Under the pieces are notes generated by a model. That model was given only the letters and a program-made list of their open reading frames with translations, did not search any database and was not told the DNA's origin. A DNA stretch of 64,000 nucleotides from an uncultured Gammaproteobacteria bacterium (GTDB lineage: Bacteria; Patescibacteriota; Patescibacteriia; Patescibacteriales; UBA12465), in assembly GCA_964639785.1 (NCBI GenBank), contig CAZXEE010000001.1, positions 243,832 to 307,831 on the forward strand, written 5' to 3'. Each line of letters starts with the position of its first letter. The first letter of the stretch is position 1. A program made the position numbers and the translations under genes. Shown here in pieces: positions 28,155 to 38,166 of this stretch.

Positions 28155-29324
28155 ATGGACAACAAACTAAGCAAGCCGTTTTTGCTCTTGTTGGTCGTTT
28201 TTGTTTTAGCTGCCTGCTATCTGGTCTTCAAGCCGTTCTTGATCGAGATCGTTATTGCAGCCGTTCTGGTTTCTATCCTTTACAAGCCGTATGACAAGAT
28301 CAGGCGTCTTTTGGGCAATAGCCGGAATGCCGCTGCCTTGATTATGTGCTTGTCGGTCATTATCTTGATCGTTCTGCCTTTGTCGGAAGGGATGATCCTG
28401 GCTGGGAGAAAATCAGTTACAGCCTATAACGACGTTGTCCAGTTCTTTGGCCAGAATAATGAAGTTATCCAGAGTAAATATCTGAGACAATTGGATTTTG
28501 TCGGTTTAGATAATAGCAATGTAGAGAATTTCGTGATAGACATCGTCAAGCGCTCCAGCGATTGGATGGTGGGAGCGGCAACCTTTATCTTGAAGGGAAC
28601 TACCAGCTTCTTCGTTTCCTTGTTCTTTATCATCTTCGCTATGTTCTTTTTCTTTAGGGACGGCGAACGGATGCTGCGGAAACTGATGCTCTGGTCTCCG
28701 CTTCAGGACAAGTACAATTTGCGTCTTTTCAAGAAGTTCAAAGATGTCAGCTATTCGACTATCATTTCAACTTTCGTAACAGCTTTTGCCCAAGGCATCG
28801 TCGGTGCCATCGGTTATGCGATAATTGGTGTTCCGGCTTTTTTCCCAGGTATCTTGATAGCTTTCACTTCGCTTTTGCCATATATCGGTTCGATGCTGAT
28901 CTATATCCCGACTGGTATCTATCTGCTTATCACCGGTCAGATCTGGCAAGGTATATTCATCCTGTTGTGGGGGGCGATAGTTATCGGTAATACTGATAAT
29001 ATTATCCGGACCTATATGATCCAGGGTAAGGCTCATGTCAATCCGGTTTTCGTTTTCTTTTCTATCTTGGGGGGCGTTTCCTTGTTCGGTTTCTGGGGCG
29101 TAGTTATCGGTCCGTTAATCATCTCTATCGCTATCACCGTTTTCCATATCTATGAATTGGAGTATGGCTTGGTGCCGGAAGAGGAGGTTAAGGAGATTGT
29201 TGCTTCAGACAAGATTGATCAGAAACGGATAATGGAGAAAAATAAACAGGAGGAGGCAGAAGCTGCAAAAGAAAGGAAGGAAGAATTGAAAGAGAAGAAA
29301 GAAAAGGAAAAGGAGAAAAAATAA
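28155..29324 (+). CDS. AI-2E family transporter (PerM/UPF0118) with a Lys/Glu-rich tail
   Basis: Multi-TM protein with ..FVTAFAQGIVGAIGYAIIGVPAFFPGILIAFTSLLPYIGS.. typical of the family. The C-terminus is KE-rich. Confidence 0.75.
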   Translation: MDNKLSKPFLLLLVVFVLAACYLVFKPFLIEIVIAAVLVSILYKPYDKIRRLLGNSRNAAALIMCLSVIILIVLPLSEGMILAGRKSVTAYNDVVQFFGQNNEVIQSKYLRQLDFVGLDNSNVENFVIDIVKRSSDWMVGAATFILKGTTSFFVSLFFIIFAMFFFFRDGERMLRKLMLWSPLQDKYNLRLFKKFKDVSYSTIISTFVTAFAQGIVGAIGYAIIGVPAFFPGILIAFTSLLPYIGSMLIYIPTGIYLLITGQIWQGIFILLWGAIVIGNTDNIIRTYMIQGKAHVNPVFVFFSILGGVSLFGFWGVVIGPLIISIAITVFHIYELEYGLVPEEEVKEIVASDKIDQKRIMEKNKQEEAEAAKERKEELKEKKEKEKEKK

Positions 29325-29337
29325 TCAGATTATTTAT

Positions 29338-29408
29338 ACGGGATTCGTATAGTGGTAGTACAGCGGACTCCAAACCCGCTGGCGGGGGTTCGATTCCTCC
29401 ATCCCGTG
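29338..29408 (+). tRNA. tRNA-Trp (anticodon CCA)
   Basis: Acceptor ACGGGAT/ATCCCGT, anticodon loop CTCCAAA (the 31-39 pair is an A-C mismatch), T arm GGGGG-TTCGATT-CCTCC. Confidence 0.8.
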
Positions 29409-29417
29409 CAATATCAA

Positions 29418-29448
29418 AGAGACACAGCGACGCTGTGTCTCTTTTTTT
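29418..29448 (+). terminator. Intrinsic terminator after tRNA-Trp
   Basis: AGAGACACAG-cgacg-CTGTGTCTCT followed by TTTTTT. Confidence 0.85.
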
Positions 29449-29452
29449 ATGT

Positions 29453-29481
29453 TTGACAATTTCAGAGATATTGGATATTAT
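29453..29481 (+). promoter_or_regulatory. Sigma70-type promoter of an ORF-less transcription unit
   Basis: TTGACA-N17-TATTAT, directly after the tRNA-Trp terminator. Confidence 0.6.
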
Positions 29482-29487
29482 TGAGCT

Positions 29488-29734
29488 AACAGTGGTGGAG
29501 ATTAACCGGATCCACCATCTCCTCATAAGAGGCGACATGCTTAAGGTTATTATCAGTTTTTAAAATTGTTCTAAGTAGCGGCAAGCGAACAGGCAAGCAA
29601 AGGGGGGTCTGAACGGATAAGGCTCATATCCTAATACTCTTCGCCCTTTTATCAATATTTTTTAAACTGATGATTTTTAAATCGGACCACCGAAATTTAT
29701 AAAGCAAAGCTTTGTAGAAATCGGTGGTTTTTTC
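29488..29734 (+). ncRNA. Candidate structured small RNA (~245 nt), class unknown
   Basis: Bounded by its own promoter and by the long hairpin CCACCGA...TCGGTGG plus TTTTTT (29687-29734). No ORF longer than 8 codons. Internal helices include ATCAGTTT/AAACTGAT long-range pairing, GGATA-N7-TATCC and AAAGGG/CCCTTT. Confidence 0.4.
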
Positions 29735-29741
29735 TTTGTCA

Positions 29742-29770
29742 TTGACATTATTAATATATCGTGGTATTAT
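29742..29770 (+). promoter_or_regulatory. Sigma70-type promoter for the 29797 gene
   Basis: TTGACA-N17-TATTAT, the same hexamers as the promoter at 29453. Confidence 0.6.
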
Positions 29771-29796
29771 TAAAGGTCCTTTAAAATGTTGTAGAA

Positions 29797-30093
29797 ATGA
29801 AAAAAGAAGTTAAAAAATCGGAACCAAGGAAGTTATCTCTGGATGAGGTAACCACCCTTGAACGCTGGAGGTATGCCAGAAGCATGGCTACTGATCCGGT
29901 GGAAGTCAAAAAGCTCGATACGATCGCCAGGATAATTGCTCAGAATGATGTTAAGTCTGCCGTTATCTTTATCCGGGGGCACTGGTCCATCAGTCCGGAC
30001 CTCATATTGATCGTTTTCGGAGTCTTGGTCAGAAGCCAATATATTCTGGCTAAAAAGCTAAGGAAGGAAATTAAGTTTTCCTTTGTCGTTTAA
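29797..30093 (+). CDS. Hypothetical protein (98 aa)
   Basis: ORF between a consensus promoter and a hairpin terminator. No motif recognised. Confidence 0.5.
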   Translation: MKKEVKKSEPRKLSLDEVTTLERWRYARSMATDPVEVKKLDTIARIIAQNDVKSAVIFIRGHWSISPDLILIVFGVLVRSQYILAKKLRKEIKFSFVV

Positions 30094-30112
30094 AAACAGG
30101 ATATTTCTTCAA

Positions 30113-30145
30113 AAGGTCTGGATTCGTCCAGACTTTTCTTTTTTA
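30113..30145 (+). terminator. Intrinsic terminator
   Basis: GGTCTGGA-ttcg-TCCAGACT followed by TTTCTTTTTT. Confidence 0.75.
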
Positions 30146-30153
30146 GCCTGGTA

Positions 30154-30182
30154 TTAACATTTTATTATTATTGGGCTATAAT
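30154..30182 (+). promoter_or_regulatory. Sigma70-type promoter of kup
   Basis: TTAACA-N17-TATAAT, about 38 nt upstream of ATG 30220. Confidence 0.55.
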
Positions 30183-30235
30183 CATACAGTATTTCGTTTC
30201 ATATCATTTTTGAATCTCTATGAGTATTAGTAGCG

Positions 30236-30265
30236 AAAAGGCCGCCAAAAGGCCGCCAAAAGGCC
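30236..30265 (+). repeat. 11-bp tandem repeat (AAAAGGCCGCC x2.7) at the 5' end of kup
   Basis: Units at 30236-30246 and 30247-30257, with a partial third at 30258-30265. Confidence 0.95.
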
Positions 30266-30272
30266 TTTTAAT

Positions 30273-32162
30273 TTGTTATTGATAGTCGGCGCCTTAGGCG
30301 TCGTTTTTGGCGATATCGGAACCTCTCCTTTGTATGCCCTGACTGAGACTTTCTTCGGCCACCATCCTTTGGCTCGCAGTTTGGATAATGTTATGGGTGT
30401 CTTATCGCTGATCTTCTGGACCCTGATGATTGTCGTTACTATCAAATATATCTATCTGATCATGCGGGCTGACAACAAAGGGGAAGGGGGAATCTTTGCC
30501 TTGTTAGCTTTGTTGCGCCAAGGAAGGGTTAAGAAGGTCCTGGGATTGAGCGTAACGGTAGTCGTACTTATGGGCGCTACTTTGCTCTATGGCGATGGCA
30601 TGATTACTCCAGTCATTTCGGTCTTGTCGGCAGTGGAGGGTTTCAAAGTCTTGTCGCCTAACTTTTCTCCTTTTGTCGTTCCGGTGACTATCGCCATTCT
30701 CGTGTTGTTATTTTCCATCCAAAAGAAGGGAACAGGCAAGGTTGGCGGTTGGTTTGGTCCGATTATGGTTGTCTGGTTTGTAACCTTAATATTGTTAGGT
30801 CTACCTAAAATCATACAGCAGCCACAAGTTTTATGGGCTATTAACCCGATTTATGCTTTGAAATTTATCGGTCAGCATGGCTGGTTGACGCTCTTCGTTT
30901 TGAGCTCTATAGCTTTGTGTATTACTGGTTGCGAAGCTCTTTATGCTGATATGGGGCATTTCAATCGCCAGACCATTACTTGGGCTTGGACAGTATTAGT
31001 TTATCCGGCGTTGATTATCAATTATTTCGGTCAGGGCGCTTTATTGTTGTCAGGTGATGCTATTCCAAGCAATAATATTTTTTATGCCTTAGCTCCGCAA
31101 TGGGCTTTCTTGGGCGTGGTTGTAATAGCTACTGTGGCGACTATTGTTGCTAGCCAAGCTTTGATTTCCGGTGTTTATTCTCTCACTAGTCAAGCGGTTG
31201 CTTTGGGCTTATTCCCGAAGATCAAAATTATCCACACTAATCCGGATGTCGAAGGACAGATCTATGTTCCGGCTATGAATAAGGTCTTGGCTGTCGGTTG
31301 TATTATTTTGGCCTTGGTGTTCAGGACTTCGAGTGGCCTGGCAGCAGCCTATGGCATTGCAGTTACCGGTACCATGGTCATTACGACTTTAGTCTTTTAT
31401 CTTATCGTCCGGTATCTGTGGCACTGGTCTTGGTGGATGATCGCTCCGGTATTTTCTTTTTTGATAATTTTTGATTTGTCATTCTTTGCCAGTACTGTCT
31501 TGAAATTCTGGCAGGGCGGTTTCATTTCGATTCTGATTGCGGCCGCCTTATTCTTGATCATGTCGACTTGGGATTGGGGCCGGAAGATATCTCGAGCAGC
31601 CCATCTGTCCTTGCCGGGATTCTCGATTGCAGAATTGACTGAATTCCAGAATGATCCGAGCCAGAAATTTTTGAACCGTTCTATCGTCGTCATGTCCTCA
31701 CGTCCGATAACCAGAAGGCAGGATCGGATTCCGGCAGCTTTGAATTCATTTTTTTCTAAGTGGGGCTTGTTGTTGCCTAAGCATATCATCTTCTTGAATG
31801 TTTCATTCTTGAACAGCCCGCATGCCCGGAAAGCTGATCGTTACAGTATTATCAATTTCCAGCCGGATTCCAGCCGCGGCCGGATCATTTCCATCCAAGC
31901 CTTTTATGGTTACATGCAGCAGCCCAATATCCGCCATCTGTTAGTGGAGTTGAAACGGGACGGGAAGATCAAGATTCCGGCTGAAGCCCAGAAATGGCTG
32001 GTAATGGTCGCTCGAGACCGCTTCATTCTCCGTCCGCGCAATATCTTCAAGCGGATCAGGATTAATATTTTAAATGCCATGATCAGTTACACCAAGCCGA
32101 CTGTCAATTATTATGGCCTGAGCTATGACCACAAGGTGGATATCGAGACGATTAATATATAG
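30273..32162 (+). CDS. kup: KUP/HAK/KT potassium uptake transporter. As sequenced it starts at TTG; the ATG at 30220 is out of frame.
   Basis: GVVFGDIGTSPLYAL near the N-terminus, ~12 TM segments, GCEALYADMGHF, and a cytoplasmic C-terminal domain. Confidence 0.85.
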   Translation: MLLIVGALGVVFGDIGTSPLYALTETFFGHHPLARSLDNVMGVLSLIFWTLMIVVTIKYIYLIMRADNKGEGGIFALLALLRQGRVKKVLGLSVTVVVLMGATLLYGDGMITPVISVLSAVEGFKVLSPNFSPFVVPVTIAILVLLFSIQKKGTGKVGGWFGPIMVVWFVTLILLGLPKIIQQPQVLWAINPIYALKFIGQHGWLTLFVLSSIALCITGCEALYADMGHFNRQTITWAWTVLVYPALIINYFGQGALLLSGDAIPSNNIFYALAPQWAFLGVVVIATVATIVASQALISGVYSLTSQAVALGLFPKIKIIHTNPDVEGQIYVPAMNKVLAVGCIILALVFRTSSGLAAAYGIAVTGTMVITTLVFYLIVRYLWHWSWWMIAPVFSFLIIFDLSFFASTVLKFWQGGFISILIAAALFLIMSTWDWGRKISRAAHLSLPGFSIAELTEFQNDPSQKFLNRSIVVMSSRPITRRQDRIPAALNSFFSKWGLLLPKHIIFLNVSFLNSPHARKADRYSIINFQPDSSRGRIISIQAFYGYMQQPNIRHLLVELKRDGKIKIPAEAQKWLVMVARDRFILRPRNIFKRIRINILNAMISYTKPTVNYYGLSYDHKVDIETINI

Positions 32163-32172
32163 GAATAGCAAA

Positions 32173-32198
32173 AACCCTCGGAAAGTCTGAGGGTTTTT
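32173..32198 (+). terminator. Intrinsic terminator after kup
   Basis: CCCTC-ggaaagtct-GAGGG followed by TTTTT. Confidence 0.6.
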
Positions 32199-32243
32199 AT
32201 ATTAGAGGCGAAAGATGGTATAATATGGGTATAATATAATCAT

Positions 32244-32618
32244 ATGAACTTAGCTCCGAAGAGAAGTTTCTTGGCCTGGGGGTTGCTGTTATTGGCCGTC
32301 TTGGCTTTGATTTATTTCATCAGTCCGCATCGGGCTGATTATCTGCGGTATCTTAGGGAGCCGCAAGCGGGTATCGCTCTCCACCAACCCCTAACCCTAG
32401 AAGACGTTCCCATGATCCAATCCTGGATGACCTTTGATTATCTTAATCGGGTTTTCGGTTTGCCGGCTTATTACCTAGCGGCTGTCTTGGAGATTAATGA
32501 TGAGAATTATCCGAATCTGGTTATCCAGCATTATGTCAGTGACCAGGGGTTGGATCTACAGTCGTTTTCAGCTCGAGTCCAGGCGGTGATAACTGATTAT
32601 CTAAGTTCAAAGCCATGA
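32244..32618 (+). CDS. Hypothetical membrane-anchored protein (124 aa)
   Basis: N-terminal TM FLAWGLLLLAVLALIYFI. Its stop overlaps the next start (ATGA at 32615). Confidence 0.5.
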   Translation: MNLAPKRSFLAWGLLLLAVLALIYFISPHRADYLRYLREPQAGIALHQPLTLEDVPMIQSWMTFDYLNRVFGLPAYYLAAVLEINDENYPNLVIQHYVSDQGLDLQSFSARVQAVITDYLSSKP

Positions 32619-33223
32619 GTTCTATCTTAGCTCTAGCTTTATCTTATGTTTTGCTCTATAAATACCTGGCGCTATTTATCATGATTTTCGGGGCGGCTTT
32701 GGTTTTGCCGATCCCGTCCAATGTCGTCATGATCGCGGTTGGCGTGTTCTGCAATCAGGGCTATATGGATCCGCTGGCTTCTTTTGCGGTGATTTTTCTG
32801 GCTAATGTCCTGGGTGACTTAGCTGGTTATTTTTTGACTAGGCATTACGGCCAATCCCTTTGGCAGAGATTCATCCGTCGCCAGCCCGCCTATCTCGTTA
32901 ATCTGGAAAGATACATCAAGAGTTCGGTCGGTTGGACGATTGTCATTACGCGCTTCATCAATACTATCGGATTCGTGGTTAATCTTTTTTGCGATTTGGT
33001 TAAGTTGCCTTTCAAAAAATTTTTGGGCTGGGACATCATCGGCAATATATTGGGAATTTCATTGATGATGGTCATCGGTTTCGTCTTCAGCAAATATTGG
33101 GGGCAGGCTGCTGATTTTGCCAATCTATTCAGTCTCGGATTGCTGTTTATCTTGATAGTTTCAGTGATTATCAAGATTACCTCCTGGAATCGTCATCGGC
33201 CGCCGGAAATGGCAGTGAAATAA
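32615..33223 (+). CDS. DedA/SNARE-associated (VTT domain) family membrane protein
   Basis: ..LVLPIPSNVVMIAVG.. and ..FLANVLGDLAGYFLTRHYG.. fit the DedA pattern. Confidence 0.6.
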   Translation: MSSILALALSYVLLYKYLALFIMIFGAALVLPIPSNVVMIAVGVFCNQGYMDPLASFAVIFLANVLGDLAGYFLTRHYGQSLWQRFIRRQPAYLVNLERYIKSSVGWTIVITRFINTIGFVVNLFCDLVKLPFKKFLGWDIIGNILGISLMMVIGFVFSKYWGQAADFANLFSLGLLFILIVSVIIKITSWNRHRPPEMAVK

Positions 33224-33253
33224 AAAGCTCCCGCTATCAGCGAGAGCTTTTTT
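33223..33253. terminator. Bidirectional terminator between convergent genes
   Basis: AGCTCCCGCT-atc-AGCGAGAGCT (one mismatch), flanked by an A-run and a T-run. Confidence 0.7.
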
Positions 33254-33265
33254 GGTTCCAGTTAA

Positions 33266-33673
33266 TTATTGTTTGTTCATCTCTTCCAAGAGGGCGGTGA
33301 ATTCCGGCAGCTTGGATCTGTTTTCGTTTGGGATAATATCTTCGAGCTTCATCTCGATACTGGCTGTCGCATCTTGGAGCAGGTTCTTGCCGGCTGAGGT
33401 AATTGTGGCATATCGGGCTCGGGCATCGGATTCATCCAGGTCCCGTTCGATGATACCTAGTTTCTCTAAAGGCAAGAGCATGCGGGTGATGCCGGAAGCG
33501 GTTAGTCCCATTTTCTCGGCCAGGTCGATACGGCGCAGTTTCTGGTTTGGAGCTTCATTAAGATATGACAGAATCATGAAGTCGGTAAAGTCCAGGCCGT
33601 GGACGCTGAGACGGCGAGCTAGGATGGCGTTAGTTTTGATGAGTGAAAAAAGGAAGGGAATGGTGTTTTTCAT
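33266..33673 (-). CDS. MarR family transcriptional regulator (135 aa from ATG 33673)
   Basis: ..LDFTDFMILSYLNEAPNQKLRRIDLAEKMGLTASGITRMLLPLEKLGIIERD.. is a winged-HTH MarR pattern. Confidence 0.8.
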   Translation of the reverse strand: MKNTIPFLFSLIKTNAILARRLSVHGLDFTDFMILSYLNEAPNQKLRRIDLAEKMGLTASGITRMLLPLEKLGIIERDLDESDARARYATITSAGKNLLQDATASIEMKLEDIIPNENRSKLPEFTALLEEMNKQ

Positions 33674-33694
33674 AGGTTTTGGTTGATTTATTAA

Positions 33695-33738
33695 TTGATA
33701 TATCAAGTATATAGCTATGTTATTGATATGTCAAGTAT
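33695..33738. promoter_or_regulatory. Two direct copies of a palindromic 16-mer, candidate MarR operators
   Basis: TTGATATATCAAGTAT (33695-33710; the core TTGATATATCAA is a perfect palindrome) and TTGATATGTCAAGTAT (33723-33738), in the divergent intergenic region. Confidence 0.5.
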
Positions 33739-33830
33739 TTGATGAAATGGGAAAAATTCCTTTATTGTGTTAATATGTGGAATGCAGTGATTAGTTAAGA
33801 ATATAAAAATAATCAATTTAATTATTCAAT

Positions 33831-34457
33831 ATGAAAAATAAGATTCAAATATTGCATATCCATGGCGGGGGAACTTTCAAGAGTCGGGCTGATTATTTGT
33901 CATTCTTGCGCGAAGCGCCGGTATCGATAGAGAAGAAGGTTCGTTGGAGCGGCGAGTGGTTGGAAAAGAAATTAGGTCCTGATTTTGAAATTATCAAACC
34001 CTCAATGCCTTTGAAAGAAAATGCTCGCTATTCTGATTGGAAAATCTATTTCGAAAGATTTTTTCCTTACTTGCATAGCAATATTATCCTAATTGGCAAT
34101 TCTTTGGGCGGGATATTTTTGGCTAAGTATCTGTCGGAGAATAAATTTCCTAAGAAGATATTATCTGTTTACTTAGTCTGTCCGCCTTTTGATGGCAGCC
34201 TGTCCGATGAAGCCTTGGTCGGAGGTTTCAAGTTGGGGTCGGATCTGTCATTGATCGAAAAGAATTGTCGGAATGTTAATCTGTTGTTTTCCCAGAATGA
34301 TGATGTCGTGCCAGTCGCTCATGCCGAGAAATATGCTCGGAAACTGAAGAATTCTAATATCCTGGTTTTTCCGCATATCAAGGGCCATTTCAAGGTAGCT
34401 GAGTTCCCGGAGATAGTAAAAATGATCAAGGATGATGTCAAAAAGCTAAGAAAATAG
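33831..34457 (+). CDS. Alpha/beta-fold serine hydrolase (YdeN/RBBP9-like)
   Basis: ILHIHGGG.., nucleophile elbow GNSLGG, and late ..D..H residues. 208 aa. Confidence 0.55.
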   Translation: MKNKIQILHIHGGGTFKSRADYLSFLREAPVSIEKKVRWSGEWLEKKLGPDFEIIKPSMPLKENARYSDWKIYFERFFPYLHSNIILIGNSLGGIFLAKYLSENKFPKKILSVYLVCPPFDGSLSDEALVGGFKLGSDLSLIEKNCRNVNLLFSQNDDVVPVAHAEKYARKLKNSNILVFPHIKGHFKVAEFPEIVKMIKDDVKKLRK

Positions 34458-34472
34458 GGTAATTTTAAGCAC

Positions 34473-34501
34473 TTGACTTAGTTTTAGGTTTGTTGTACCA
34501 T
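34473..34501 (+). promoter_or_regulatory. Sigma70-type promoter of an ORF-less unit
   Basis: TTGACT-N17-TACCAT. Confidence 0.4.
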
Positions 34502-34507
34502 TTGGTT

Positions 34508-34655
34508 TATGAATTTGGTTCTTTCTGAAGAATATAAAGATTGTAGGATTGATAGCTAGTACTGATGGTCTGGGTGCGGCCATACAGTCGTAAGAGGATG
34601 AAGCGAAAGTCCGCTAGTGATACAATCCGCCTCCCTGGAAACAGGGAGGTTTTTT
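34508..34655 (+). ncRNA. Candidate structured small RNA (~150 nt), class unknown
   Basis: Closing helix GGATTG..CAATCC extended by ATAGCTAG/CTAGTGAT. Inner hairpin ACTG-ATGGTC-tgggtgc-GGCCAT-a-CAGT. Strong terminator CCTCCCTG-gaaa-CAGGGAGG plus TTTTTT. About 130 nt of AT-rich DNA separates it from the next ATG. Confidence 0.4.
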
Positions 34656-34783
34656 ATTTTTTAAAGGAATTGAATAATAATATTTAGCATAATTTTTGAA
34701 ATAATATCTTCGGTTGTTGGTTATTTTTCATTAAAATGCTATAATATAATCTGAACCCAAGATAATAATTAAATCCAGTTTAT

Positions 34784-34987
34784 ATGAAAAAAAATGAGAG
34801 CTTGATAGACCGTTTTGCCCGGATCGTCATCGCTTTGCTGGTGATGTTCGTGGCTTATGTGATGTTGACCGGTTTCTGGCAGTGGGTAGCTTATGCCTTT
34901 TCCGCTTTCCTGGCTATCAGCGCCGGTACCGGAGTCTGTCTGATTTATAAATTGCTCGGTATCAACACCAACAAATTAGATTATTAA
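34784..34987 (+). CDS. DUF2892 (YgaP-TM-like) small membrane protein
   Basis: ..IDRFARIVIALLVMFVAY...LAISAGTGVCLIYKLLGINT fits the DUF2892 pattern. Confidence 0.6.
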   Translation: MKKNESLIDRFARIVIALLVMFVAYVMLTGFWQWVAYAFSAFLAISAGTGVCLIYKLLGINTNKLDY

Positions 34988-35002
34988 TCTGAAACTTCTA
35001 TT

Positions 35003-35033
35003 AAAAAACCCTATTCTGAGAATAGGGTTTTTT
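35003..35033. terminator. Bidirectional terminator
   Basis: AAAAAACCCTATTC-tgag-AATAGGGTTTTTT. Confidence 0.8.
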
Positions 35034-35043
35034 ATTTATTCGA

Positions 35044-36792
35044 TTAAGCATTCAATATCAGCCACTCATCTTCTTTTTCTTTGATAGCCATTTTGGTTTC
35101 TTCCAGTTCTTTAACCTTGATAGGGTCATAGCTGCTGGGATTCTTAAGGAAGAAATCAATCAGTTTCTTTTCTTTGTTTTTTAATTTTTCCAGATCTCTT
35201 TCCAGGCTTTTAGTCATCTTCTGGTTTTCTTTTTTTTCTAAGTATCTGTTCCTGGCCTCTTCGTTCTTATTATTATTGGAATTACTCTCGGCTATTTCTC
35301 GCTCCAATTGTTTTTCTAATCTGTCGACATATTCTTCATAGCTTTCCATCAGCTGCTTGGCCTGTCCGTTCTTGATTTCCACCAATCCGGTAGCCAGCAG
35401 ATTGGTAAAGGTTCGGTCATGGCTGGTGAAGATGATGGTGCCGTTCCATCTTTGTAAAGCTGAGCCGAGAGCTTCAGTGGTTTCAAAGTCGAGGTGGCAG
35501 GTCGGTTCATCCAAAATGAAGATATCCGGTTTGGATAATAGCAGTCCGGCGAGAAGCAGGCGGGATTTTTCGCCGCCGGATAGGACGCCGATCGGTTTCT
35601 TCAGCTCTTCATCTTTGAAAAGGAAATCTCCAGCCATCTTCAAGACTGATTCGGTCTTGATTTCGGCGGCAGCTGAGCGCCTAAGGTAGGTTCCGACCTG
35701 TTCCTTGTCGTTTAAGGTAATGATAGCTTCTTGGCCGTGATAGGCGATGCGGCTATCAGTTGAGAGCCGGAAAGAGCCGGAAACGACCGGTAAAGATCCG
35801 ATTATCGTCCGGATAAAGGTAGTTTTGCCTTGGCCGTTTAAACCGAGGATAGATATCTTTTCGCTGGATCGGCAATCGATATTGATGTCTGAAACTATGG
35901 CTTGGCCGTCATAGCCGATAGCCAGGTCGTTCGTCCGCAGGGCGATATTGTGGCGCTTGATGGTTGGCGGGATATTGATCCGGGTGATACCGGCGCGATG
36001 TTCGATAGTGATCCGTTTGTTTTCCATTTTGCTGATCTTCTTGATGACTGCCTGCGCTTGCTTGGCTTTAGTAGCCTTGAATCGGAAGCGATCAACGAAC
36101 TCCTGCATATGTTTCTGTTGGCGGTCCAGGCTTTCATTGGCTTTGATCAGGGCAGCCAGCTTTTGTTCCTTGAAAGCGAGATAGGCTTCAATGTTGCCGG
36201 AATAGTGGTAGCAGCCGGTGGCGGATATGTCTAGAGTTTCATGACAGGTCCGTTTGAGGAATTCTCGGTCATGGGAGATGATGAGGAAGCTGCCTTTATA
36301 TGACTTCAGATAGTTTTCTAGTAATAATAAAGTGTTCAAGTCCAGATAGTTAGTTGGTTCATCGAGCAGGAAGAGGTTCGGTTCGTTTAAGAGCATGGCC
36401 GTCAGTTTCAAGCGCATGCGCCAGCCACCGGAAAGATTATCAGCTGGTCCGTTCAATTTGTCTTCGCCTAATTGGAACTTGGAGGCCAGTTTCTTGATAG
36501 TCCATTCTTCGCGCCCGCTGATCCGCTTGAGATAGTCTAGGGCGCTTTCTGAAATTTCGAATCTTTCCTCTTGTTTCAAGTAGCCGATCCGAGCTTCGCT
36601 CCCGATCATAATCTGTCCGTTATCGGCTGTTTCTTCGTTAGTGAGGATACGGAAGAGGGTGGATTTTCCGGCGCCGTTCTTGCCGATGACTCCGATCTTC
36701 TGGCGGGTGGAGACGGTAAAAGTGAGGCCGGAAAATATTTTCTGGCCGCTATAGCTTTTACTCAGATTGTTGACTTGGAGTAATATAGACAT
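35044..36792 (-). CDS. ABC-F family ATPase (two ABC domains, no TM; 582 aa from ATG 36792)
   Basis: Walker A GKNGAGKST and GLNGQGKTT. Signatures LSGGWRMRL and LSGGEKSRL. Coiled-coil C-terminal tail. Confidence 0.85.
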   Translation of the reverse strand: MSILLQVNNLSKSYSGQKIFSGLTFTVSTRQKIGVIGKNGAGKSTLFRILTNEETADNGQIMIGSEARIGYLKQEERFEISESALDYLKRISGREEWTIKKLASKFQLGEDKLNGPADNLSGGWRMRLKLTAMLLNEPNLFLLDEPTNYLDLNTLLLLENYLKSYKGSFLIISHDREFLKRTCHETLDISATGCYHYSGNIEAYLAFKEQKLAALIKANESLDRQQKHMQEFVDRFRFKATKAKQAQAVIKKISKMENKRITIEHRAGITRINIPPTIKRHNIALRTNDLAIGYDGQAIVSDINIDCRSSEKISILGLNGQGKTTFIRTIIGSLPVVSGSFRLSTDSRIAYHGQEAIITLNDKEQVGTYLRRSAAAEIKTESVLKMAGDFLFKDEELKKPIGVLSGGEKSRLLLAGLLLSKPDIFILDEPTCHLDFETTEALGSALQRWNGTIIFTSHDRTFTNLLATGLVEIKNGQAKQLMESYEEYVDRLEKQLEREIAESNSNNNKNEEARNRYLEKKENQKMTKSLERDLEKLKNKEKKLIDFFLKNPSSYDPIKVKELEETKMAIKEKEDEWLILNA

Positions 36793-36867
36793 AGTCGATA
36801 CTATTAATTTAAGCGTAATAACGGATATTTTGCAAATAGTGCCGCTTTTTACTATACTGATAGGACT

Positions 36868-38166
36868 ATGAAACAAAAGGATGCCTTAGCGATACTTGAA
36901 GCAGGCCATAATGTCCTCTTGACCGGTCCAGCCGGCAGCGGCAAGACTTTTTTGTTGAACAAATATATCGCTTATCTGAAGAAAAAGGGCATCGGAGTGG
37001 CTGTTACCGCCTCAACCGGCATTGCGGCGACGCATATCGGCGGCCGGACTATCCACTCTTGGGCCGGAATCGGGATCAAGGATCATCTGACTCCGCGCGA
37101 TATCCAGAGTTTGACTAAGAGATCATATCTCAAGAAACAATTTGCGCAGACGGAGGTGTTGGTGATCGATGAAGTTTCCATGCTCCACGCCCATCGCTTG
37201 GATATGGTTGATAGGGTTTGCCAGGCTTTTAAGAAGAATTTTCTGCCTTTCGGTGGCATCCAGGTAGTGATGTCCGGAGATTTTTTCCAATTGCCACCGG
37301 TGTCTTCTGGGGGAGATGAAGCAGAGTTTGTCTACAAAGCAGATGTCTGGTCTGAGATGGATTTGCGGATTTGCTATCTGGATGAACAGCATCGTCAGAA
37401 CGATCAGAAGATGACTAAGATCTTGCAGAGTTTTCGGCAGAATGCGGTCGATGAAGAAGTGGTCCGGATGCTTGAAGCCAGGATTAACCAGAAGCCGAAA
37501 AGCAGTTTGCGCCCAGTCCGTCTCTTTACCCATAATATCGATGTCGATGCGATCAATGAGGCTGAGCTGGCCAAGATTGCAGCGCCGGAGTTTAGCTATC
37601 GGATGTCAGGCGATGGAGAAAAGAAATTAGTGGAATCTCTCAAGAAGAATTGCTTGGCGCCGGAAACCTTGATTTTGAAGAAGGGCGCTTTAGTGATGTT
37701 CGTCAAGAACAAGTTCAAAGATGAGCGGGCAGTCTATGTTAACGGCAGTATGGGAATAGTGGTCGGTTTCGATGAGAATGATTTTCCCATCGTCCGTCTC
37801 AATTCCGGCCAAGAGGTTCTGGTGACACCGGATAGCTGGACTATTGATGACGAGCATCAGATACTAGCCAAGATTACCCAGCTTCCGCTCCGGCTGGCTT
37901 GGGCTATTACGGTTCATAAGAGCCAGGGAATGACCCTGGAGATGGCTGAAATCGACCTGAGCCGCTCTTTCGGCTATGGTATGGGTTATGTGGCCTTGTC
38001 TCGTCTAACTAGCCTAGAGGGGCTGTATTTGCTGGGAATCAATCAGATGGCCTATCAGCTTGATCCTCAGGTTTTCGCTTATGACAAGGAGCTTTTGGCC
38101 TTGTCGCGGCAAGCCAAGGCCGATATCCCATCAAAAGTGCGGAAGAAACAAGGAGTCCTGGTTTAA
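36868..38166 (+). CDS. PIF1/RecD-like superfamily 1 DNA helicase
   Basis: Walker A GPAGSGKTF, VLVIDEVSML, GDFFQLPPV and AITVHKSQGMT motifs. Confidence 0.75.
   Translation: MKQKDALAILEAGHNVLLTGPAGSGKTFLLNKYIAYLKKKGIGVAVTASTGIAATHIGGRTIHSWAGIGIKDHLTPRDIQSLTKRSYLKKQFAQTEVLVIDEVSMLHAHRLDMVDRVCQAFKKNFLPFGGIQVVMSGDFFQLPPVSSGGDEAEFVYKADVWSEMDLRICYLDEQHRQNDQKMTKILQSFRQNAVDEEVVRMLEARINQKPKSSLRPVRLFTHNIDVDAINEAELAKIAAPEFSYRMSGDGEKKLVESLKKNCLAPETLILKKGALVMFVKNKFKDERAVYVNGSMGIVVGFDENDFPIVRLNSGQEVLVTPDSWTIDDEHQILAKITQLPLRLAWAITVHKSQGMTLEMAEIDLSRSFGYGMGYVALSRLTSLEGLYLLGINQMAYQLDPQVFAYDKELLALSRQAKADIPSKVRKKQGVLV

What the first reader, a model, noticed from the sequence alone, without database searches (positions are those of the whole stretch)
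30154..30282. 11-bp tandem duplication uncouples kup from its ATG start
The promoter TTAACA-N17-TATAAT (30154-30182) is followed by ATG 30220. That reading frame passes through AAAAGGCCGCC AAAAGGCCGCC AAAAGGCC (30236-30265) and stops at TGA 30280-30282, giving the 20-aa peptide MSISSEKAAKRPPKGLLICY. The kup frame is open only from 30234 and has no ATG; its first start codon is TTG 30273. Removing one 11-bp unit (11 = 2 mod 3) puts ATG 30220 in frame and yields MSISSEKAAKRPFNLLLIVGALGVVFGDIGTSPLY, a normal Kup N-terminus. The locus is therefore one of three things:
- a recent duplication or frameshift allele
- a slipped-strand on/off switch
- a sequencing or assembly error
Basis: seen in the sequence. 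Interest (0 to 1): 0.6.

Follow-up and report, generated by a model that had tools for sequence, protein, structure and literature searches.

The report
Frameshifting 11-bp duplication in kup
One strain of an uncultured groundwater-type (Patescibacteria) bacterium carries a real 11-base tandem duplication that cuts its potassium transporter gene off from its start codon, while a sister strain still has the intact gene: an ordinary strain-specific frameshift mutation.

Summary
ATG 30220 opens a 20-codon ORF that ends at TGA 30280-82. AAAAGGCCGCC is present 2.7 times, perfectly, at 30236-30265. The kup frame is closed by TAG 30228-33, and its first start is TTG 30273 (629 codons).

A conspecific strain (Logan assembly of SRR16642448, 98.3% identical over 7.7 kb) has exactly one unit fewer. 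It encodes a 643-aa Kup that begins MSISSEKAAKRPFNLLLIVG.

All 33 related loci examined have an in-frame ATG 20-26 codons before the GDIGTSPLY motif. All 27 closest homologues are 637-651 aa long. A second assembly (Logan SRR8925725) reproduces the 3-unit allele over 7,890 identical bases, and the longest internal repeat (19 nt) is too short to confuse an assembler.

The best reading is therefore a recent, real slipped-strand duplication between two pre-existing AAAAGGCC octamers. It probably gives a null or strongly hypomorphic kup allele. Residual expression by reinitiation at the TTGA stop/start overlap is possible, and so is easy reversion.

An evolved phase-variation switch is not supported: there are only 2-3 units, sister species have no such repeat, and only two alleles are known. 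Programmed frameshifting and an assembly artefact are unlikely. This is ordinary biology and of low interest.

The parts
30112..30137 (+). Terminator-like hairpin followed by a T-run, closing the upstream orf98 unit. It marks kup as a separate transcription unit.
   Evidence: 11-pair stem, then CTTTTTT. The hairpin reads the same in the two strains in the printed stretch.
30154..30182 (+). Sigma-70-type promoter-like site of kup (TTAACA-N17-TATAAT).
   Evidence: 11 of 12 positions match. The site is identical in strain L034. The same TTAACA-N17-TATAAT arrangement lies upstream of kup in the 81%-identical relative L001.
30220..30282 (+). Remnant of the native kup start: the ancestral ATG and codons 1-12, then frameshifted codons and TGA. 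It now forms a 20-codon upstream ORF.
   Evidence: In L034 the same ATG opens the full 643-codon kup.
30236..30265 (+). Perfect tandem array AAAAGGCCGCC x2.7. The sister strain has x1.7, so one 11-bp unit is the insertion (aligned as 30236-30246).
   Evidence: Tandem Repeats Finder; the only 11-bp indel in a 7.7-kb strain alignment; unique in the window.
30273..32162 (+). Body of kup, 629 codons from the first available start (TTG). It is intact and holds the whole conserved K_trans core and the C-terminal domain, but lacks the 14-residue basic N-terminal tail.
   Evidence: Gene callers of NCBI/Logan data also call this 629-aa product. There are 11 synonymous and 2 non-synonymous codon differences from L034.
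30279..30282 (+). TTGA: the stop codon of the 20-codon ORF overlaps an in-frame kup TTG. The other TTG (30273) lies 7 nt upstream of the stop. This is a possible termination-reinitiation site.
   Evidence: Read directly from the sequence. The mechanism is inferred from work on overlapping gene pairs (PMC6728339, PMC10666635).
30222..30287 (+). Predicted mRNA hairpin. Codons 1-9 pair with the stretch that holds TTG 30273 and TTG 30279. The inner stem AAAAGGCC/GGCCTTTT flanks the repeat.
   Evidence: z = -2.2 for the window allele and -3.1 for the 2-unit allele; the hairpin is present in the window species, weaker in L001 and L002, and absent in L003-L013. One search lists the inner stem as terminator-like.

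Best explanation
This is a real, recent, strain-specific frameshift allele of the potassium transporter gene kup in a Patescibacteria (Falkowbacteria-like) genome.

**Origin.** The ancestral 5' coding sequence read ...GCG AAAAGGCC GCC AAAAGGCC TTTT..., with two 8-bp direct repeats 11 bp apart next to a hairpin-prone palindrome. Replication slippage between the two octamers copied GCC+AAAAGGCC a second time. That added 11 bp (2 mod 3) after codon 12.

**Consequence for the reading frame.** Ribosomes that start at the native ATG 30220 now stop after 20 codons. The remaining 629 codons of kup are intact but can only begin at TTG 30273 or TTG 30279.

**Likely consequence for function (inferred).** This organism starts genes almost exclusively at ATG and shows almost no SD-like motifs upstream of its starts. 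The TTGs lie in a GC-rich, base-paired stretch. The basic N-terminal tail present in every relative is lost. I therefore infer a null or strongly reduced-function allele. Some truncated Kup could still be made by termination-reinitiation at the TTGA overlap. The allele can revert by loss of one unit.

**Shown versus inferred.** Shown: the duplication, the ancestral allele, reproducibility in a second assembly, and conservation of the ATG start. Inferred: the slippage mechanism, the loss of function, and the leaky expression.
For: 1. **The predicted ancestral allele exists.** The 90%-identity cluster of the window's 629-aa product holds one other member, P0121 (643 aa), with N-terminus MSISSEKAAKRPFNLLLIVG. 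Its contig (Logan SRR16642448, locus L034) is 98.3% identical to window 29446-37161. The alignment has 118 SNPs and only three indels, one of which is exactly AAAAGGCCGCC at 30236.
2. **Polarity.** The outgroups L001 and L002 (81% and 78% identical) and 31 further loci all have a single ORF with an ATG 20-26 codons before GDIGTSPLY. L002 (MDTNKKVLKKPFNLLL) is collinear with the 2-unit allele. The 3-unit state is therefore derived. The 27 closest database homologues are 637-651 aa, against 629 here.
3. **Not an assembler artefact.** The Logan assembly of SRR8925725 is identical to the window over 7,890 bp, including the 3 units. The longest repeated substring in the array is 19 nt, below the k-mer sizes assemblers use (reasoning).
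4. **Recent.** The repeat is 100% perfect. The rest of kup has no further lesion. It differs from L034 at 11 synonymous and 2 non-synonymous codons, so the gene was under purifying selection for most of the divergence.
5. **Poor alternative starts.** Of 49 long ORFs, 43 start with ATG and almost none has an SD-like motif. The next in-frame ATG is codon 41 (30393), beyond the GDIGTSPLY motif. The TTGs lie in the 3' arm of a predicted hairpin.
6. **The lost tail is universal.** The last in-frame Met upstream of the GDIGTSPLY motif, together with the upstream ATG that one search shows for the three loci whose last Met is internal, puts an N-terminal tail on every relative. The tails counted carry 1-5 Lys/Arg, mostly 2-5. 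The TTG product has none.
Against: - No read-level data could be examined. A minority or majority 2-unit subpopulation in the same sample cannot be excluded.
- The NCBI contig and the Logan contig may derive from the same reads. If so, there are two assemblies but possibly only one dataset.
- Loss of function is inferred, not shown. The TTG-start ORF keeps the entire Pfam core (profile positions 2-440), and homology to solved HAK5 structures begins only at residue 17. A truncated protein could therefore work if it is translated.
- The species is known from only four contigs, so allele frequencies are unknown.
Confidence: 0.8

Rival explanations
1. Evolved slipped-strand (phase-variable) ON/OFF switch. 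The 11-bp repeat would be a contingency tract whose copy number flips kup between in-frame (2 units) and out-of-frame (3 units) at high frequency.
For: The unit length is not a multiple of 3, and the tract sits in the first 15 codons. Both an ON (2-unit) and an OFF (3-unit) allele exist in nature in strains that are 98.3% identical. With 19 nt of self-overlap, the 3-unit allele should lose a unit more easily than the 2-unit allele gained one (inference).
Against: - The tract has only 1.7 to 2.7 copies. Known contingency tracts usually have many units (own knowledge).
- The 11-bp periodicity is absent from the sister species. L001, L037, L097 and L002 have an in-frame 12-bp-period, imperfect AAAAAGGTTTYGAAAAAGCC instead.
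- A single change between strains that differ by 118 SNPs in 7.7 kb needs no elevated rate.
- No other such tract occurs in 64 kb.
Confidence: 0.07
2. Sequencing or assembly error. The genome would really have two units and an intact kup.
For: The source is a metagenome-assembled genome. The two contigs that carry the 3-unit allele (NCBI 546,729 bp and Logan SRR8925725) may come from the same reads.
Against: - Two different assembly pipelines give the identical sequence over 7.9 kb.
- An exact 11-bp insertion is not a typical short-read error.
- The array's longest internal repeat (19 nt) cannot create a de Bruijn cycle at k of 21 or more (reasoning).
- The surrounding genes in the window are intact.
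Confidence: 0.05
3. The allele is still functionally expressed. Either ribosomes that terminate at TGA 30280-82 reinitiate at the overlapping TTG (TTGA) or at TTG 30273, or a low-level -1 slip at A_AAG (30237-40) or A_AAA_G (30258-62) moves ribosomes from the ATG frame into the kup frame. Kup would then still be made, at a reduced level. This concerns the consequence of the mutation, not its origin, and it is compatible with the best explanation.
For: - The kup frame is -1 relative to the ATG frame and is open from 30234. Both Lys-codon slip sites lie inside that overlap.
- A stop/start overlap of -4 type or a very short distance is what termination-reinitiation coupling requires (PMC6728339, PMC10666635).
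- Translation of the 20-codon ORF would melt the hairpin that buries the TTGs.
- The TTG product retains the whole conserved core.
- kup has no second lesion.
Against: - TTG is rarely or never a start in this genome.
- No canonical X XXY YYZ heptamer is present.
- None of the 33 relatives has a two-frame architecture, so nothing has been selected for recoding.
- Tetranucleotide slips give at most a few percent in E. coli reporters (own knowledge, not verified here).
- The basic tail is lost in the reinitiation product.
Confidence: 0.25

Closest known systems
Short tandem-duplication frameshift mutations from slipped-strand mispairing at short direct repeats (Streisinger model; for example the CTGG x3 gain/loss hotspot in E. 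coli lacI, from own knowledge)
   Same: - The duplicated unit is perfect.
- It is bounded by a pre-existing direct repeat (AAAAGGCC...AAAAGGCC).
- Its length is not a multiple of 3.
- It produces an early stop.
- It is reversible by loss of one unit.
- Both states are seen in natural strains.
   Different: Nothing essential differs. The unit is longer (11 bp), the tract sits next to a palindrome (AAAAGGCCTTTT), and the host is an uncultured Patescibacteria lineage.
Simple-sequence-repeat contingency loci (phase variation in Haemophilus, Neisseria, Campylobacter)
   Same: An intragenic repeat near the 5' end whose copy number sets the reading frame. In-frame and out-of-frame alleles both exist.
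   Different: There are only 2-3 units, the tract is not conserved in sister species, no within-population variation has been shown, and the target is a housekeeping-type K+ transporter rather than a surface or restriction-modification gene.
Translational coupling by termination-reinitiation at overlapping stop/start codons (ATGA/TGATG gene pairs; PMC6728339, PMC10666635)
   Same: The new 20-codon ORF ends in TTGA, which overlaps an in-frame kup TTG, and 7 nt after another. This is the geometry that allows reinitiation.
   Different: Here the geometry arose by accident from a mutation. The start codon is TTG, not ATG. No coupling has been measured.
KUP/HAK/KT potassium transporters (E. coli Kup, B. 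subtilis KimA, plant HAK5)
   Same: Full K_trans and K_trans_C domains. The GDIGTSPLY motif is present. There are strong matches to solved HAK5 structures.
   Different: In this strain the gene lacks its ATG and its basic N-terminal tail. The sister strain has the normal 643-aa form.

Membership tests
KUP/HAK/KT potassium transporter gene | K_trans membrane domain plus K_trans_C domain | tested here: met
   PF02705 at E = 2.3e-172 (profile positions 2-440 of 454) and PF22776 at E = 4.5e-16; matches solved HAK5 chains at E about 1e-88.
KUP/HAK/KT potassium transporter gene | Uninterrupted ORF from an ATG, with a short basic N-terminal tail before TM1, as in relatives | tested here: not met
   In the window the ATG is out of frame and the first in-frame start is TTG, 12 codons before GDIG. 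All 33 relatives, and the sister strain, have an ATG 20-26 codons before the motif.
Slipped-strand tandem-duplication frameshift allele | Perfect tandem copy of a segment bounded by a pre-existing direct repeat, and absent from the ancestral allele | tested here: met
   The 2-unit allele in L034 has AAAAGGCC-GCC-AAAAGGCC. The window has one extra GCC+AAAAGGCC. Outgroups are in frame.
Slipped-strand tandem-duplication frameshift allele | Real in the DNA of the organism, not an assembly product | tested here: inconclusive
   A second assembly (Logan SRR8925725) is identical over 7,890 bp. The raw reads could not be inspected, and the two assemblies may share reads.
SSR contingency (phase-variation) locus | Repeat unit not divisible by 3, inside the 5' coding region or promoter | tested here: met
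   An 11-bp unit within codons 6-16.
SSR contingency (phase-variation) locus | Long tract (many units) that confers hypermutability | tested here: not met
   2.7 copies in the window and 1.7 in the sister strain.
SSR contingency (phase-variation) locus | Copy number varies within populations or among near-identical strains, with several states | tested here: inconclusive
   Two states are seen on four contigs of two strains that are 98.3% identical. There are no read-level data and no further conspecific contigs.
SSR contingency (phase-variation) locus | Repeat tract maintained in orthologues | tested here: not met
   L001, L002, L037 and L097 lack the 11-bp period. More distant relatives have no repeat.
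Programmed -1 ribosomal frameshift | Canonical slippery heptamer X XXY YYZ in the overlap | tested here: not met
   Only the tetranucleotide sites A_AAG (30237-40) and A_AAA_G (30258-62) are present.
Programmed -1 ribosomal frameshift | Two-frame architecture conserved in relatives | tested here: not met
   All 33 relatives and the sister strain encode Kup in one frame.
Translational coupling by termination-reinitiation | Stop of the upstream ORF overlaps, or lies within a few nt of, the downstream start | tested here: met
   TTGA at 30279-82, and TTG 30273 lies 7 nt upstream of the TGA. The criterion comes from PMC10666635 and PMC6728339.
Translational coupling by termination-reinitiation | Downstream translation depends on upstream translation | not testable with these tools
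   This needs reporter constructs with and without the upstream ATG or stop.

The most novel reading that the evidence does not exclude
The AAAAGGCCGCC tract is a genuine reversible genetic switch. It would turn the K+ transporter on and off in populations of an ultra-small Patescibacteria symbiont. As far as I know, no contingency locus has been described in this radiation (own knowledge, not searched). The adjacent conserved hairpin would promote slippage.
Probability: 0.07. Interest if true: 0.5.

Novelty: new member of a known kind. Interest (0 to 1): 0.18.

Why it matters
The main value is for annotation and quality control. The 629-aa "TTG-start" Kup in public protein sets is a frameshift remnant. 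It should be labelled a disrupted gene, or at best a truncated allele, and the true product of the species is the 643-aa protein.

The locus is also a clean natural example of a slipped-strand duplication with both alleles preserved, in a lineage where gene loss is thought to shape tiny genomes. If read data showed the two alleles coexisting, it would become a small case study of reversible gene inactivation in Patescibacteria. As it stands, no new mechanism or open question is involved.

Tried and rejected
- **Metagenome pattern scan.** I scanned JGI metagenome contigs for the two flanks with a 0-30-nt gap, which would catch the 0.7-, 1.7- and 2.7-copy alleles. It found nothing.
- **Protein-guided metagenome scan.** It returned 65 loci, but none was conspecific; the best were 81-88% identical. 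These loci served only as outgroups.
- **Genome-representative scan.** The closest genome was 81% identical, so the window's own species is not a representative there.
- **Literature search.** A search for the two run accessions found no paper. A search for the tetranucleotide-frameshift paper failed, so that point rests on my own knowledge.
- **Rfam.** The whole window gave only three tRNAs. There is no riboswitch or leader in front of kup, for example no c-di-AMP riboswitch.
- **Conserved regulatory hairpin.** The 5' coding hairpin is strong in this species (z = -3.1 and -5.6), weaker in L001 and L002, and absent in L003-L013. Part of it follows simply from Lys (AAA/AAG) and Phe (TTT) codons. 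I dropped it as an explanation and kept it as a side note.
- **Alternative genetic code (UGA = Gly in some Patescibacteria).** Rejected. ORFs are long under table 11, the 20-codon ORF's TGA is followed directly by TAG, and that frame is not the kup frame anyway.
- **Transcriptional slippage.** Rejected. No homopolymer longer than A4/T4 lies in the overlap.
- **3-unit allele as the ancestral state.** Rejected by the outgroup comparison.
Full report
**1. The observation**

- TTAACA-N17-TATAAT lies at 30154-30182, matching 11 of 12 consensus positions.
- ATG 30220 opens MSISSEKAAKRPPKGLLICY, which stops at TGA 30280-82. TAG follows immediately.
- The frame that encodes Kup reads EY**RKGRQKAAKRPFNLLLIVGALGVVFGDIGTSPL. 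It is closed by two TAG codons (30228-33). Between them and TTG 30273 there is no ATG, GTG or TTG.
- Tandem Repeats Finder reports AAAAGGCCGCC, period 11, 2.7 copies, 100% identity, at 30236-30265.
- This is the only perfect array with period 7-20 and at least 2.5 copies in the 64-kb window. Composition-preserving shuffles give 0.07 per window.
- The 629-codon ORF from TTG 30273 is a KUP/HAK/KT potassium transporter: PF02705 at E = 2e-172, plus PF22776.

**2. The organism and its relatives**

The closest genomes are metagenome-assembled Patescibacteria, labelled Falkowbacteria or "Patescibacteria group", at 81% and 78% protein identity (L001, L002). A second tier lies at 66-73%.

I examined 33 related loci: 13 from the genome collection, 19 from the metagenome collection, and the sister strain (L034). 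In all of them the kup ORF runs uninterrupted from an ATG that lies 20-26 codons before the GDIGTSPLY motif. In three loci the script picked an internal Met, and one search shows their true upstream ATG. The N-terminal tails carry 1-5 Lys/Arg residues, mostly 2-5.

The 27 closest proteins in a 5.8-billion-protein search are 637-651 aa long. Only the window's product is 629 aa.

**3. The decisive result**

The 90%-identity cluster that contains the window's 629-aa product has exactly one other member, P0121, of 643 aa.

P0121 is encoded on a Logan contig of run SRR16642448 (L034) and on one further contig. L034 aligns to window 29446-37161 at 98.3% identity, with 118 SNPs and only three indels:
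- AA at 30092;
- AAAAGGCCGCC at 30236;
- a T in a T6 run inside the neighbouring VTT/DedA gene.

The promoter-like site, the 5' UTR and the ATG are identical in the two strains. The 2-unit, in-frame allele therefore exists in a conspecific strain. Because the outgroups are in frame and collinear with it (L002 MDTNKKVLKKPFNLLL against MSISSEKAAKRPFNLLL), the 3-unit allele of the window is the derived state.

**4. Is it real?**

The 629-aa product is found on two contigs: an NCBI contig of 546,729 bp, presumably the source of the window, and contig 9025 of the Logan assembly of SRR8925725. The Logan contig is identical to the window over all 7,890 bases fetched, including the three units.

The longest repeated substring in the array is 19 nt, shorter than assembler k-mers, so a graph cycle cannot have added a unit (reasoning). 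An exact 11-bp insertion is also not a typical read error. I could not inspect reads, and I do not know whether the two assemblies share reads. I give an artefact about 5%.

**5. Mechanism of origin (inferred)**

The 2-unit allele reads GCG-AAAAGGCC-GCC-AAAAGGCC-TTTT: two octamers 11 bp apart. The second octamer is part of the 12-bp palindrome AAAAGGCCTTTT. The whole stretch lies inside a predicted long hairpin.

Mispairing of the nascent second octamer on the first template octamer re-copies GCC+AAAAGGCC. That gives exactly the window sequence. This is the classical slipped-strand route to short tandem duplications. The product has 19 nt of self-overlap, so it should lose a unit more readily than the parent gained one.

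**6. Consequence (inferred)**

- Translation from the native ATG now ends after 20 codons.
- In this genome 43 of 49 long ORFs begin with ATG. The six TTG "starts" in that list are simply the first start codon of the open frame. Almost none of the 49 has an SD-like motif. De novo initiation at a TTG in a GC-rich, base-paired stretch is therefore unlikely to be efficient.
- The next in-frame ATG is codon 41 (30393), beyond the GDIGTSPLY motif.
- A TTG-initiated protein would keep the whole conserved core. The Pfam match starts at residue 4, and homology to solved HAK5 structures starts at residue 17 of the full-length protein. It would lose the basic tail that every relative has. That tail is expected to help orient TM1 under the positive-inside rule (own knowledge).
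- The rest of kup shows no second lesion. It differs from the sister strain at 11 synonymous and 2 non-synonymous codons. The gene was therefore under purifying selection for most of the divergence, and the frameshift is young.
- I conclude that this is a null or strongly hypomorphic allele.

**7. Possible leakiness**

Two routes could still give some Kup.

(a) Termination-reinitiation. The new ORF ends in TTGA, where TGA overlaps an in-frame kup TTG (30279), and another TTG (30273) lies 7 nt upstream. Overlaps or very short distances are what coupling requires (PMC6728339, PMC10666635). Translation of the short ORF would also open the hairpin that buries the TTGs.

(b) A -1 slip. The kup frame is -1 relative to the ATG frame and is open from 30234. 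A_AAG (30237-40) and A_AAA_G (30258-62) lie in the overlap. There is no canonical heptamer, and relatives have no two-frame architecture, so this could only be unselected, low-level slippage.

I give about 25% that the allele retains useful function by either route.

**8. Phase variation**

In favour: the unit is 2 mod 3, the tract lies in the first 15 codons, and ON and OFF alleles both exist.

Against:
- there are only 1.7 and 2.7 copies;
- sister species have no 11-bp periodicity, and instead carry an imperfect, in-frame, 12-bp-period AAAAAGGTTTYGAAAAAGCC;
- one change between strains separated by 118 SNPs in 7.7 kb needs no special rate;
- no other such tract lies in the window;
- no further conspecific contigs could be found to sample more alleles.

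I rate an evolved switch at about 7%. In the weak sense of a reversible mutational hotspot, it is compatible with the best explanation.

**9. Comparison with known things, and verdict**

This is a textbook slipped-strand tandem-duplication frameshift in a well-known transporter gene, in an uncultured lineage. Both alleles are preserved in public data.

It is a new instance of a known kind. It is useful for annotation: the public 629-aa protein is a frameshift remnant and the species' true product is 643 aa. It would be mildly interesting as a natural, probably reversible, gene inactivation in a reduced genome.

Interest is low (0.18).

Noticed in passing
window 28155-29446; L034 1-1020: Synteny with the sister strain ends at about 29446, just 3' of tRNA-Trp(CCA) at 29338-29409. 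The window carries an AI-2E-family transporter plus the tRNA. The other strain carries a 92-aa ORF and a cupin-like ORF, has no tRNA, and shows no DNA similarity to anywhere in the window. This looks like a tRNA-adjacent strain-variable cassette.
   Followed up: partly
window 29797-30093 (orf98): This 98-aa ORF has no Pfam match and its own promoter-like (29742-29770) and terminator-like (30112-30137) sites. It is 8.75% divergent between the two strains, against roughly 0-1.5% for its neighbours. The 8 non-synonymous changes all fall in the last 25 residues, and a 2-bp indel lies at 30092.
   Followed up: partly
window 32831-32836 (VTT/DedA gene 32615-33223); L034 about 4392: The sister strain has T7 where the window has T6. 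This truncates its VTT/DedA-family gene to 75 aa, against 202 aa here. Each strain therefore carries a different frameshifted membrane-protein gene within 3 kb. The T7 could be real or a homopolymer error in that assembly.
   Followed up: no
window 32217-32237: A second 11-bp tandem near-duplication, GGTATAATATG x1.9, gives two TATAAT boxes just upstream of ATG 32244 (orf124, no Pfam match). No indel separates the two strains here.
   Followed up: no
whole window: Only 7 of 49 long ORFs have any SD-like motif within 22 nt upstream of the start, and 43 of 49 begin with ATG. This genome appears to initiate translation largely without an SD, on A/U-rich leaders.
   Followed up: partly
window 30222-30287; L034 1795-1849; L001 and L002 kup 5' ends: The first 22 or so codons of kup fold into a long hairpin that includes the start codon. 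For the 2-unit allele, z = -3.1 against dinucleotide shuffles and -5.6 against mononucleotide shuffles. The hairpin is weaker in the two closest species and absent in more distant relatives. It may be a clade-specific translational control element, or a by-product of Lys and Phe codons.
   Followed up: partly
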